Shown piece after piece: positions 38,056 to 40,362 of a stretch of 64,000 nt of DNA (within the stretch, counting starts at the first letter, position 1; each line of letters starts with the position of its first letter). The notes under the pieces were generated by a model, which was given only the letters and a program-made list of their open reading frames with translations, did no database searches and was not told where the DNA came from. A program made the position numbers and the translations under genes. Origin of the DNA: Escherichia coli (GTDB lineage: Bacteria; Pseudomonadota; Gammaproteobacteria; Enterobacterales; Enterobacteriaceae); the NCBI RefSeq assembly GCF_044647545.1, contig NZ_CP172818.1; one strand, given 5' to 3'.

Positions 38056-40362
38056 ATGTTTAAGCCCAGGATTTGCAGCTGGATAGGTTTACTTCCCCTG
38101 TTTATGCTGAGTCTTCCAGTACAGGCGGACCTTCGATGTGTTGCAAATGCAGTTGATATTGAACCATTTTTTTCTGCGGCTACCGCTGAAGATAAACAAC
38201 AAGTTGAACAAGCTATCAACAGTAGCGTGAATCTTGTCCCCTTCGGTTTATCTGCATCGGACTGGAAAGTGCATCGTGGCGATTTAGTGGTAGACGGTAA
38301 TATAGAGAGTAATCAAAAATTGATTGTTCTTGGCAATTTGACAGTCAAAGGTAATATTTCCACTTTCTCTCTTTCTAATCCATGGGTTATTCTCGGTAAC
38401 GTGACGGCAACGAATATAGTTACGGATTCACCACTGTTAATTACCGGTTCGATAAATGCAAGTGGACTGGTATTTATCGACTCATATTACGATAATCCGT
38501 CTACGATTAAGGGGAGTATTAATGCGCGTGGGATATTTATCAATGACATAATTGCACCTGTTGTTGCGTCTTCGACAAATAGTGAATTCATGGTCCGTGC
38601 GAGTGACAAAAATGACACTGAAAATGTCAAAAAAGCGCTGATGATAATAAATCCTGATGCATATTATTGGGATCTAATAAATGATGAAGATGCTCTGAAA
38701 GAAATTTTTAAGCGAAGCAATATTCGCATGGCAGGGAATGTCTGTAATCTGATGAAAAAAGAAGCGCTGTTTCGCCCTAAGCCTTCTCCTGAGTTAGTGC
38801 AGGAATTGCAAATGCTGGATGAAGGCAACGTTGCTGCATTTGAAGGACGAGATATTGCGACATTTGATCTTGCCATAATGCGAACTCTCCCAAGGCTTAA
38901 AGGAATTTCAGCTAACCTACGCAAACAACTTATTAATAGCAATGATGGACAAACGATTGAAAGTATGGCGAGATATATGCCTGACAATGAGATTCTGGAG
39001 TTGACCGATCAGCAATTGGGTTACCAGCCTGTTGTTCTGGGGTTGCTCGACCGTGAACCGCTCTCTGTCGAAATAATGACGCGAATGAGTCATCTACCTG
39101 ATGGTGTCGGTCCGTTGAATCTTGCGCTACGTGAAAATCTCCCTCTGGATATCGTCATGACTCTGGCGAAAAGAGATTGGGATATGATCATTCAGGAGCT
39201 TTATAAAGATGCGTGGTTATTGCCCGAATCCATTATTGATGGCTATATCCGCAGTGATGATTCCTCTATTCGTCAGGTCGGTGCTGGAGGACAACTCACC
39301 TACAATCAGGCAATGCAGTTGGCGAACGATTCATCAAACGATGTTGTCACAAGCTTAGCGTCAAAGCTGGCAGAGATGAAACACCATGGTCAATTGTTGC
39401 GGATGACGCCACAAGAGAGTGACAAAATAGCAGTATATTTATACCAAAAATTCGAGAATGACGATGATCTAATAGGTGCGTTATTTTTAGCGTTGCCAGA
39501 TAACTTACAGTTTAATTTTGTTAAAAGGATGGAGAAAAAATCCCCTGCCTACTTTTGCTGTCGGGATATGCAGGTAATTCACTCTGACGCTGCTTTACAA
39601 CGGTTATTGACACGTTTCAACGATCCTGAGGGGTGGAGTAATCTGGCGAAAAATCAGTATCTGAGTACGGCGATGAAACAAAAAATTTGGCATCGCGCTT
39701 TATCGCATCGAAAAAATAATCCGAAAGCAGATTCTGCAGCATATGAAACCAGCGCTGATATGATTTTGTCGGAGCTTATCAGCTACGGTGAAGTTGATGA
39801 CCAGATGCTATTAAATGCCGCCTCTCTGATACGTTCGGAAGGCTGGGACTTTTTAGAGAGTGCATTAGTTAGTTGGGATAATTTACCCGCTGTTGTCCTC
39901 AAGGAATTACAGCAAAATATGCCACGCAATGATATTTGGGCGAAGTTTTTTCTGAGGCAGGAAAACAGCTCTCGTGCGCAGGTTAACGAAGCGTTACGTG
40001 TTTATTATGCACTAGACCCCGATGCGTTAGCACAACTGGATGTACTGGCAAAACAACCGGATCGTATATGGTGGAGTTCGCTGGCGAAAAGCAATCTTAC
40101 ATTTTTCAAGTTCGGTGCACTTAACAATCGCCATACACCGTCTGCGGCACTGGCGGCAGAAATTGATCCCGAGTGGTGGATTGTGGCGATGAATAATCCC
40201 CGTTTTCCAGTTGATGTATTAAAGGCGAGGCTGAAACGTGATCCTTTGCTGGCGTTAGAGCTTGTTAAACCTGAACTGGATTTAGTCCGCCAGCTGGCGC
40301 TTAACGGTAAGACGCGCGCAATACGGGAACAAGCGATGAGAAAACTTGATGAGTTGTATTGA
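38056..40362 (+). CDS. ydbD: large secreted protein of unknown function, 768 aa
   Basis: ORF 38050-40362 trimmed to MFKPRICSWIGLLPLFMLSLPVQA signal peptide; N-terminal region has short G-N/S-hydrophobic repeats suggesting a beta-helix; AT-rich gene. Confidence 0.85.
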   Translation: MFKPRICSWIGLLPLFMLSLPVQADLRCVANAVDIEPFFSAATAEDKQQVEQAINSSVNLVPFGLSASDWKVHRGDLVVDGNIESNQKLIVLGNLTVKGNISTFSLSNPWVILGNVTATNIVTDSPLLITGSINASGLVFIDSYYDNPSTIKGSINARGIFINDIIAPVVASSTNSEFMVRASDKNDTENVKKALMIINPDAYYWDLINDEDALKEIFKRSNIRMAGNVCNLMKKEALFRPKPSPELVQELQMLDEGNVAAFEGRDIATFDLAIMRTLPRLKGISANLRKQLINSNDGQTIESMARYMPDNEILELTDQQLGYQPVVLGLLDREPLSVEIMTRMSHLPDGVGPLNLALRENLPLDIVMTLAKRDWDMIIQELYKDAWLLPESIIDGYIRSDDSSIRQVGAGGQLTYNQAMQLANDSSNDVVTSLASKLAEMKHHGQLLRMTPQESDKIAVYLYQKFENDDDLIGALFLALPDNLQFNFVKRMEKKSPAYFCCRDMQVIHSDAALQRLLTRFNDPEGWSNLAKNQYLSTAMKQKIWHRALSHRKNNPKADSAAYETSADMILSELISYGEVDDQMLLNAASLIRSEGWDFLESALVSWDNLPAVVLKELQQNMPRNDIWAKFFLRQENSSRAQVNEALRVYYALDPDALAQLDVLAKQPDRIWWSSLAKSNLTFFKFGALNNRHTPSAALAAEIDPEWWIVAMNNPRFPVDVLKARLKRDPLLALELVKPELDLVRQLALNGKTRAIREQAMRKLDELY

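What the first reader, a model, noticed from the sequence alone, without database searches (positions are those of the whole stretch)
38056..40362. ydbD: AT-rich 768-aa secreted protein with repeat architecture and no assigned function
The gene is noticeably AT-richer than its neighbours. It encodes a signal peptide followed by short G-N/S-hydrophobic repeats (e.g. GNLTVKGNIS, GNVTATNIV, GSINASGLVF, GSINARGIFI) suggestive of a beta-helix, then a long alpha-helical repeat-like C-terminal region. It sits next to the IS-disrupted autotransporter ydbA and upstream of ynbABCD, hinting at a horizontally acquired envelope-related segment.
Basis: partly seen in the sequence, partly recalled or inferred. 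Interest (0 to 1): 0.4.

Follow-up and report, generated by a model that had tools for sequence, protein, structure and literature searches.

The report
ydbD: exported beta-helix plus helical-repeat protein
This is the already catalogued E. coli gene ydbD, which encodes a weakly expressed, probably periplasmic protein made of a short beta-helix joined to a long helical-repeat arm; its function is still unknown and it looks like a dispensable accessory binding protein rather than an enzyme.

Summary
Window 38056-40362 (+) is an intact 768-codon ORF, E. coli ydbD. It is AT-rich: 43.2% GC and GC3 40%, against 49.9% for the window.

Predicted architecture:
- a Sec-type signal peptide;
- a six-to-seven-rung right-handed beta-helix (aa 69-185);
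- a roughly 520-aa LRV/HEAT-like alpha-solenoid, whose last 81 aa are Pfam DUF2773.

An exhaustive search finds about 30 full-length relatives at 20-30% identity, most of them with signal peptides. In Streptomyces and Kitasatospora the two halves are adjacent separate genes without signal peptides.

Selection is purifying but relaxed (dN/dS 0.18 against E. albertii). Within E. coli the gene is deleted, IS-disrupted or shortened in many strains, and a strong terminator sits 16 nt before its start codon.

ydbD, ydbA and ynbABCD come and go independently of each other, so they are not one acquired block.

Best guess: a non-enzymatic periplasmic binding scaffold. It is a known gene with no known function, and of modest interest.

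The parts
38000..38039 (+). Intrinsic terminator of pdxI: 12-bp stem, 6-nt loop, then a T-run. It ends 16 nt before the ydbD start codon.
   Evidence: The scan reports no promoter-like site between the terminator and the ATG.
38047..38050 (+). Shine-Dalgarno GGAG, 5 nt upstream of ATG 38056.
   Evidence: Read directly from the sequence.
38056..40362 (+). ydbD coding sequence, 768 codons plus stop.
   Evidence: RefSeq annotates the orthologue as ydbD, 'DUF2773 domain-containing bactofilin'. dN/dS is 0.18 against E. albertii.
38056..38127 (+). Sec-type signal peptide, aa 1-24, with predicted cleavage after VQA.
   Evidence: Sequence features, plus conservation of an N-terminal hydrophobic leader in most relatives. 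AlphaFold2 pLDDT is below 50 for aa 1-25.
38128..38259 (+). N-terminal cap subdomain, aa 25-68: short strands and helix 44-57.
   Evidence: AlphaFold2 secondary structure.
38260..38610 (+). Right-handed beta-helix, aa 69-185, about 6-7 rungs.
38356..38520 (+). Stretch of about 55 aa (roughly three rungs, aa 101-155) that is cleanly missing from a 711-aa E. coli allele. That allele is 57 aa shorter in total.
   Evidence: Variant P0012 was seen on 88 contigs.
38611..38805 (+). Helical linker, aa 186-250. It has a low-confidence loop at aa 206-221 and carries the family-wide L-F-R motif (ALFRPKP, aa 237-243).
38806..40116 (+). Alpha-solenoid of degenerate LRV/HEAT-like helix-pair repeats, aa 251-687.
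   Evidence: AlphaFold2. Foldseek finds HEAT/ARM solenoids only. Among 36 relatives, Pfam LRV_2 hits 13, LRV 8 and HEAT 8. There is also an internal 21-nt repeat encoding W-S-x-L-A-K at 39632 and 40070.
40117..40359 (+). DUF2773 (PF10971), aa 688-768: the C-terminal end of the solenoid.
   Evidence: Pfam E = 6e-44, 148.5 bits against a cutoff of 25. In relatives it overlaps LRV repeat matches.
40363..40532 (+). ydbD-ynbA spacer. It carries ynbA's own promoter, so it is not part of a ydbD operon.
   Evidence: PMC3950696 maps a BglJ-RcsB-activated ynbA promoter in this intergenic region. Sequence.

Best explanation
YdbD is a real but weakly expressed and dispensable accessory protein.

Export and build. 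The Sec pathway exports it, and signal peptidase I probably cleaves it after VQA24. This would release a soluble periplasmic protein of two rigid repeat modules. The first is a capped right-handed beta-helix of 6-7 rungs (aa 25-185). The second is a roughly 520-aa LRV/HEAT-type alpha-solenoid (aa 251-768), joined to the first through a conserved linker carrying an L-F-R motif.

Likely mechanism. The protein most likely works as a non-enzymatic binding scaffold or adaptor. The solenoid would offer an extended surface for a protein, peptide or envelope-polymer ligand. The beta-helix would provide a second rigid surface that acts together with it.

Shown here: the ORF, its composition, its selective constraint, its family and its predicted fold.

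Inferred: export to the periplasm, from sequence features and their conservation.

Inferred further: the scaffold role. This rests on the absence of any catalytic-family match, on the repeat architectures, and on the two modules always travelling together.

The published methylglyoxal-susceptibility link is probably indirect.
For: Real gene under constraint. dN/dS is 0.18 against E. albertii, and every mature-protein domain has significantly fewer non-synonymous changes than neutral expectation. The beta-helix is at 0.08. Within E. coli the value is 0.21-0.37.

Export. The n/h/c regions and V-x-A motif are present, and signal peptides occur in most of the full-length relatives.

The modules belong together. 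They are fused in about 30 proteobacterial proteins. They are encoded by adjacent or overlapping genes in 5 of 5 Streptomyces and Kitasatospora loci.

No enzyme or defence family matched in Pfam, NCBIfam, PADLOC, PHROGs or PDB sequences.

Stand-alone gene. There is no conserved neighbourhood in five other contexts.

Accessory status. The gene matches in 3990 of 5426 complete E. coli genomes. Some copies carry IS insertions, some lineages have a deletion remnant, and some strains have a rung-deletion allele.

Low expression. The pdxI terminator abuts the start codon and the scan reports no promoter-like site between them. Price et al. measured under 1 ppm.

Envelope link. The gene is listed as 3.9-fold induced in the sigma-E regulon table of PMC2731931.
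Against: - No ligand, localisation or phenotype was tested here.
- The signal peptide was judged by rule of thumb, not by a trained predictor.
- The wider family conserves polar motifs in the beta-helix (H-x-G-D-L, Y-D-D-Y, Y-N-D-F-T-F-E-V, D-K). These could mark a catalytic or metal-binding site rather than a passive surface.
- E. coli YdbD has lost several of these motifs, retaining 22 of 37 strongly conserved N-domain columns against a family mean of 77%.
- The actinomycete versions lack signal peptides, so the family's core activity is not specific to the envelope.
- A transposon screen scored ydbD as important for fitness in minimal glucose medium, which is odd for a dispensable scaffold.
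Confidence: 0.5

Rival explanations
1. YdbD is a true bactofilin, as its RefSeq product name implies. On this reading its beta-helix polymerises end to end into filaments, here in the periplasm, and the filaments display the solenoid arms.
Against: - The Pfam score is 15-18 bits against a gathering cutoff of 27.9.
- Only 1 of 46 family N-domains gives even that score.
- A family profile finds no bactofilin chain in the PDB at E <= 10.
- No Foldseek hit reaches E <= 1e-3.
- In the model, both ends of the helix continue into folded segments: an N-cap subdomain and a 580-aa helical region. From general knowledge, known bactofilins are cytoplasmic.
Confidence: 0.12
2. The family's beta-helix is an enzyme or metal-binding module, for example a small glycan lyase or hydrolase like other right-handed beta-helices, and the solenoid targets it. 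The Escherichia copy would be a diverged, perhaps inactive, derivative.
Against: No sequence or profile match to any enzyme family. With only about 6 rungs, the helix is much smaller than known beta-helix glycanases. The beta-helix is the most constrained part of the Escherichia protein (omega 0.08), so it is not simply decaying.
Confidence: 0.15
3. In E. coli, ydbD is an effectively silent gene on its way to loss, with no present function.
For: About a quarter of complete genomes give no ydbD match. IS insertions, a deletion remnant and a truncated allele all occur. The terminator abuts the start codon. Expression is under 1 ppm. dN/dS is about ten times that of neighbouring core genes.
Against: The ORF has stayed intact, at exactly 768 codons, from E. 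coli to E. albertii across dS = 0.66, with omega 0.18 and highly significant purifying selection in every mature-protein domain. It is reported as induced in the sigma-E regulon table.
Confidence: 0.15
4. YdbD directly detoxifies or excludes methylglyoxal, as in the older product name 'protein involved in detoxification of methylglyoxal'.
For: That product name appears in databases. It traces to a susceptibility screen, Kim et al. 2007, PMID 17846588, cited in PMC13313352. PMC2731931 describes the gene as 'induced by methylglyoxal'.
Against: There is no glyoxalase, reductase or other catalytic signature. The architecture is made of two repeat scaffolds. The original paper could not be read here.
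Confidence: 0.05

Closest known systems
Bactofilins (Pfam PF04519; Caulobacter BacA 2n3d, Thermus bactofilin 6ria/6rib)
   Different: The sequence score is below the Pfam threshold, and the hit is absent from 45 of 46 family N-domains. The profile search finds no bactofilin chain in the PDB. YdbD has a signal peptide. The helix is flanked by folded domains rather than short tails. Polymerisation is untested.
LRV / HEAT-like repeat proteins (Pfam PF01816 LRV, PF25591 LRV_2, PF02985 HEAT, PF13646 HEAT_2)
   Same: Helix-pair repeats with the L-A-x-D-x-D-x-x-V-R pattern in relatives. Of 36 relatives, 13 hit LRV_2, 8 hit LRV and 8 hit HEAT at E <= 0.01. AlphaFold2 gives an alpha-solenoid that matches PP2A-A, karyopherin and designed ARM proteins.
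   Different: E. coli YdbD itself gives no LRV or HEAT hit; only DUF2773 is recognised. TM-scores to solved solenoids are low, at 0.1-0.25. No known LRV protein carries this beta-helix.
Extracytoplasmic beta-helix adhesin and secretion domains (tapirin 6n2b, FHA/HxuA/HpmA TPS domains, Pet passenger 4om9)
   Different: Those helices are far longer or belong to two-partner or autotransporter secretion systems. YdbD has no beta-barrel, no TpsB partner and no conserved neighbours. Sequence identity is 9-15%.
Split beta-helix / LRV-solenoid gene pairs in Streptomyces and Kitasatospora (found here, uncharacterised)
   Same: Both YdbD modules are recognised by HMMs built from the YdbD family: solenoid E = 1e-34 to 1e-38, N-domain E = 1e-57 to 1e-59.
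   Different: They are two separate, overlapping genes in the reverse order, with the solenoid first. Neither has a signal peptide.

Membership tests
DUF2773 (Pfam PF10971) | Match to the Pfam HMM above the gathering score | tested here: met
   148.5 bits against a cutoff of 25, E = 6e-44, aa 688-768, full-length model match 1-81 of 81.
Bactofilin (Pfam PF04519) | Match to the Pfam HMM above the gathering score (27.9 bits) | tested here: not met
   15.0 bits for the full protein and 18.4 bits for the N-domain alone. Only 1 of 46 family N-domains hits at E <= 0.1. A family profile finds no bactofilin chain in the PDB at E <= 10.
Bactofilin (Pfam PF04519) | Right-handed beta-helix of about six windings | tested here: met
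Bactofilin (Pfam PF04519) | Cytoplasmic protein that polymerises through exposed helix ends | not testable with these tools
   The signal peptide argues against a cytoplasmic location.
LRV / HEAT-like alpha-solenoid | Sequence match to the LRV, LRV_2 or HEAT repeat models | tested here: inconclusive
   No hit in E. coli YdbD itself. Hits occur in 8-13 of its 36 aligned relatives at E <= 0.01. Those inspected individually are mostly near or below the gathering score.
LRV / HEAT-like alpha-solenoid | Stacked helix-pair solenoid fold | tested here: met
   About 45 helices across aa 188-767, with pLDDT mostly above 85. Foldseek hits at E <= 0.001 are HEAT/ARM repeat proteins only, at low TM.
Sec-exported (SPase I) periplasmic protein | N-terminal n/h/c signal peptide with an A-x-A-type cleavage site and no lipobox | tested here: met
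   MFKPR / ICSWIGLLPLFMLSL / PVQA|DL. There is no L-x-x-C lipobox at Cys28. Comparable leaders occur in most full-length relatives. This is a rule-of-thumb judgement, since no SignalP-type tool was available. Localisation was not tested.
Horizontally acquired island | Atypical composition | tested here: met
   43.2% GC and GC3 40% against 49.9% for the window and GC3 51-62% in core neighbours. The E. albertii orthologue has the same 43.2% GC.
Horizontally acquired island | Mobility hallmarks (flanking repeats, integrase, tRNA) or absence from sister taxa at the same locus | tested here: not met
   No mobility genes of its own. The orthologue sits at the same pdxI-azoR locus in E. albertii. Its absence from B2 E. 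coli is an internal deletion that leaves both gene ends in place.

The most novel reading that the evidence does not exclude
The YdbD N-terminal module may be a distinct beta-helix domain family that no Pfam model yet covers. Its signature motifs are W-x-x-H-x-G-D-L, Y-D-D-Y and Y-N-D-F-T-F-E-V. On this reading it forms an obligate two-part unit with an LRV solenoid: fused and exported in Proteobacteria, split and cytoplasmic in actinomycetes. It is also recombined with LRR, ankyrin and DUF285 repeat arms in other proteins. If the module self-assembles as bactofilins do, the exported forms would be a periplasmic filament-forming scaffold. I know of no such system, and a literature search for periplasmic or signal-peptide bactofilins turned up none.
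Probability: 0.12. Interest if true: 0.6.

Novelty: already known. Interest (0 to 1): 0.27.

Why it matters
ydbD is one of the remaining function-unknown genes of E. coli K-12. Three points here would help anyone who takes it on.
- It has a clear domain map, and the evidence indicates export.
- The database label 'bactofilin' is not supported at family level.
- The split gene pairs in actinomycetes show that the beta-helix and the solenoid work together, which gives a tractable two-protein system for finding the interface and the ligand.

For genome scanning, the finding is ordinary: an annotated, AT-rich, weakly constrained accessory gene that is often lost.

Tried and rejected
Searches that found nothing:
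- PDB sequence search with the protein and with the N-domain profile. The only hits were a chance match to a designed repeat protein and MinC at E = 1.1.
- PADLOC and PHROGs.
- NCBIfam, which gave only a far-sub-threshold MinC hit.
- Rfam over 36900-41200.
- The sigma-E promoter consensus GGAACTT-N15-17-TCNAA, with no match anywhere in the window.

Tools that failed or were limited:
A tighter alignment, A3, worked, but only through the single pattern YNDFTFE, so the taxonomic picture is a small sample.
- The afdb50 fold library was unavailable.
- The word-index profile search with A2 returned only E. coli fragments.

Leads that went nowhere:
- Guilt by association. Five non-Escherichia contexts share no neighbours. 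A glyoxalase-family gene next to one homologue is a single case on the opposite strand, so I did not count it as support for the methylglyoxal link.
- The flanks of the actinomycete loci differed between loci and were not pursued.
- The original methylglyoxal screen (PMID 17846588) is not held in the library.

Rejected idea: an operon with ynbABCD. ynbA has its own mapped promoter, and the two vary independently across genomes.
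Full report
**1. The observation**

Window 38056-40362 (+) is a single intact ORF of 768 codons. An in-frame GTG lies six bases upstream, but it overlaps the Shine-Dalgarno GGAG at 38047-38050. That leaves the ATG at 38056 with ideal 5-nt spacing.

The gene is 43.2% GC with GC3 40.2%. The window is 49.9% GC, and the flanking core genes pdxI, azoR and hrpA are 52.0, 51.8 and 53.7% GC (GC3 50.9, 55.0 and 61.6%). The first 600 nt are the most AT-rich part at 40.5%. The downstream genes ynbA (45.1%) and ynbB (43.4%) are comparably AT-rich.

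The gene is E. coli ydbD. RefSeq names it 'DUF2773 domain-containing bactofilin', and it gives a match in 3990 of 5426 complete E. coli genomes. The stated neighbours are present: an IS2- and IS30-split ydbA upstream and ynbABCD downstream.

**2. Anatomy of the protein**

The N-terminus, MFKPR-ICSWIGLLPLFMLSL-PVQA|DL, has the three regions and the V-x-A motif of a Sec/SPase I signal peptide. It has no lipobox.

An exhaustive HMMER search of 1.84 billion representative proteins found 169 hits at E <= 1e-3. About 30 of these are full-length proteins of 750-820 aa at 20-30% identity. Most carry an equivalent hydrophobic leader. One apparent exception simply had a miscalled start: the upstream ATG restores MLKLNILTGCIIMIGLNSFA|QS.

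AlphaFold2 with this alignment gives a confident model (pLDDT 87.2, pTM 0.75). It shows:
- a disordered signal peptide;
- a small cap with one helix (aa 44-57);
- beta-strands from aa 70 to 181;
- about 45 helices from aa 188 to 767.

**3. The two modules**

*C-terminal module.* Foldseek against the PDB returns only HEAT/ARM solenoids, such as PP2A-A, karyopherin-beta2 and designed armadillo proteins, at E about 1e-4 and low TM. In E. coli YdbD, Pfam recognises only DUF2773 at aa 688-768 (E = 6e-44). Among 36 aligned relatives, however, LRV_2 hits 13, LRV 8, HEAT 8 and HEAT_2 4, and DUF2773 overlaps LRV repeats. The C-terminal two-thirds is therefore a degenerate LRV/HEAT-type alpha-solenoid, and DUF2773 is its last few repeats. 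An internal 21-nt repeat encoding W-S-x-L-A-K, at 39632 and 40070, is a trace of that repeat ancestry.

**4. Is it a bactofilin?**

At the level of fold, it resembles one. As a family member, it does not qualify.
- The Pfam Bactofilin score is 15-18 bits against a gathering score of 27.9.
- Only the E. coli sequence, out of 46 family N-domains, gives even that score.
- A profile of the family finds no bactofilin chain in the PDB at E <= 10.
- Foldseek finds nothing at E <= 1e-3. Its best-probability hit is Thermus bactofilin 6rib, with probability 0.72 and target-normalised TM 0.60.

The protein is also exported, and its helix continues into folded segments at both ends. No Pfam model covers the N-domain in the relatives.

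**5. The wider family**

Typical members conserve W-x-x-H-x-G-D-L, G-x-Y-D-D-Y, V-L-G-D, S-W-G, Y-N-D-F-T-F-E-V, A-R-A-L-V-x-x-D-K and a downstream P-x-F-R motif.

E. coli YdbD keeps H-R-G-D-L and L-F-R. It has replaced Y-D-D with I-S-T and F-E-V with S-T-I. It retains 22 of 37 strongly conserved columns, against a family mean of 77% and a minimum of 55%. It is a divergent member, but not an outlier.

The same N-domain also occurs alone or fused to other repeat arms, often without a signal peptide: LRR (P0137, P0167), ankyrin (P0141) and DUF285 (P0148).

A pattern scan of one genome per species recovered Tahibacter soli, which has a fused form with a signal peptide, and several Streptomyces and Kitasatospora genomes. 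In all five actinomycete loci that carry the full N-domain, the arrangement is the same. An ORF matching the YdbD solenoid HMM (E = 1e-34 to 1e-38) lies immediately upstream of, and overlaps, an ORF matching the N-domain HMM (E = 1e-57 to 1e-59). Neither ORF has a signal peptide. This fusion/fission pattern is the best evidence that the two modules act together. It also shows that the family's core activity is not specific to the envelope.

**6. Selection and population genetics**

Against the E. albertii orthologue (also 768 codons, 80% amino-acid identity, 43.2% GC), dN/dS is 0.18. By region it is 0.08 in the beta-helix, 0.19 in the solenoid and 0.18 in DUF2773. Each mature-protein domain has significantly fewer non-synonymous changes than neutral expectation. 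For comparison, hrpA is 0.015, pdxI 0.03 and azoR 0.06. Within E. coli, dN/dS is 0.21-0.37. The gene therefore encodes a protein under real but relaxed constraint.

It is nonetheless dispensable:
- about 1400 complete genomes give no match;
- IS insertions are annotated within it, including ISVsa5, ISKpn26, IS1B and IS200C;
- B2 strain UM146 keeps the pdxI terminator, the Shine-Dalgarno site and the first ~33 nt, joined to the last few dozen nt of ydbD, which is an internal deletion rather than a gene that was never present;
- a 711-aa allele seen on 88 contigs lacks aa 101-155, about three rungs, in frame.

**7. Expression**

A strong terminator (12-bp stem at 38000-38029 plus a T-run) ends 16 nt before the ATG. 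The scan reports no sigma-70-like site between them, and the sigma-E consensus has no match in the window. ydbD must therefore be transcribed by read-through, or from a promoter upstream of the hairpin. This fits the expression level of under 1 ppm reported by Price et al..

The literature adds little:
- ydbD is listed as 3.9-fold induced in the sigma-E regulon table of PMC2731931;
- a YciT ChIP-exo peak is reported;
- a transposon screen scored ydbD, and also ynbB, as important in minimal glucose medium, which the authors found puzzling;
- the methylglyoxal label traces to a 2007 susceptibility screen that I could not read.

**8. Context and the 'acquired segment' idea**

The three loci vary independently:
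- E. albertii has pdxI-ydbD-azoR, without ynbABCD or ydbA;
- UM146 has ynbAB without ydbD;
- O145:H28 16003 and EC476 have ydbD without ydbA;
- ynbA has its own BglJ-RcsB-activated promoter in the ydbD-ynbA spacer;
- more distant homologues sit in unrelated neighbourhoods.

They are therefore not one acquired block. ydbD was already at this locus before E. coli and E. albertii diverged. Its AT-richness is compatible with an old foreign origin, but that is not shown.

**9. Mechanism**

The explanation I favour, at about 0.5, is a Sec-exported, soluble, non-enzymatic binding scaffold. The LRV/HEAT solenoid would bind a protein, peptide or envelope-polymer ligand, and the beta-helix would be its obligatory partner surface.

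The rivals are:
- a genuine periplasmic bactofilin-like polymer (0.12);
- an enzymatic or metal-binding beta-helix whose Escherichia copy has diverged (0.15);
- a silent gene on its way to loss (0.15);
- direct methylglyoxal detoxification (0.05).

None could be tested directly with the tools available.

**10. Verdict**

The structural interpretation is right. The 'one acquired segment' idea is not supported as stated. This is a known, annotated gene of unknown function.

The additions made here are the domain map, the caution about the 'bactofilin' label, the family's range, the split actinomycete gene pairs, and the pattern of relaxed constraint with recurrent loss. Interest is modest.

Noticed in passing
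window 1-64000; sharp breakpoint at about 36,915-36,940: The window is a mosaic relative to K-12 MG1655. About 21,000-36,900 (the 3' part of the paa genes, paaXY and the IS2/IS30-split ydbA) has essentially no mismatches to K-12. Positions 4,400-9,500, 11,000-21,000 and everything from 36,940 onward differ from K-12 by 1-10%. Windows 1-9,505 and 36,916-53,034 are 99.99-100% identical to pig isolate EC476, which lacks feaR..paaX and ydbA. This could be natural recombination or a hybrid strain.
   Followed up: partly
window 38356-38520 (ydbD aa 101-155): A common E. coli allele of 711 aa (P0012, seen on 88 contigs) lacks about three beta-helix rungs in frame. The deletion lies between the similar rung sequences TVKGNIS and TIKGSIN, which suggests recombination between rung repeats.
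   Followed up: partly
window 38000-38039: The pdxI terminator hairpin ends only 16 nt before the ydbD start codon, and the scan reports no promoter-like site in between. ydbD seems to depend on terminator read-through or on a promoter inside pdxI. The hairpin, Shine-Dalgarno site and first ~33 nt of ydbD survive in strains that have deleted the rest of the gene (locus L013, UM146).
   Followed up: partly
L004-L007 and L009 (Streptomyces / Kitasatospora): The YdbD modules are encoded by two overlapping genes in the reverse order, LRV solenoid first and then a beta-helix protein of about 200 aa. Neither has a signal peptide. This looks like an uncharacterised, conserved gene pair.
   Followed up: partly
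window 37132-37992 (pdxI): Synonymous divergence of pdxI between the window and three other E. coli strains is 0.17-0.19. That is three to five times the value for the adjacent ydbD (0.035-0.067), which points to different recombination histories on either side of the pdxI-ydbD junction.
   Followed up: no
L018 (NCBI assembly GCA_025398735.1, record CP104694.1), 7410-7943: One distant YdbD homologue (P0081) lies next to a glyoxalase-family gene on the opposite strand. This is a single case and is probably a coincidence with the methylglyoxal label.
   Followed up: no
window 43722-45113 versus annotated ynbD: The mechanical ORF for ynbD starts at 43722 (463 aa). RefSeq annotations in other strains use a start that gives 438 aa (K-12 and others) or 430 aa (EC476), so the start codon is not settled.
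   Followed up: no
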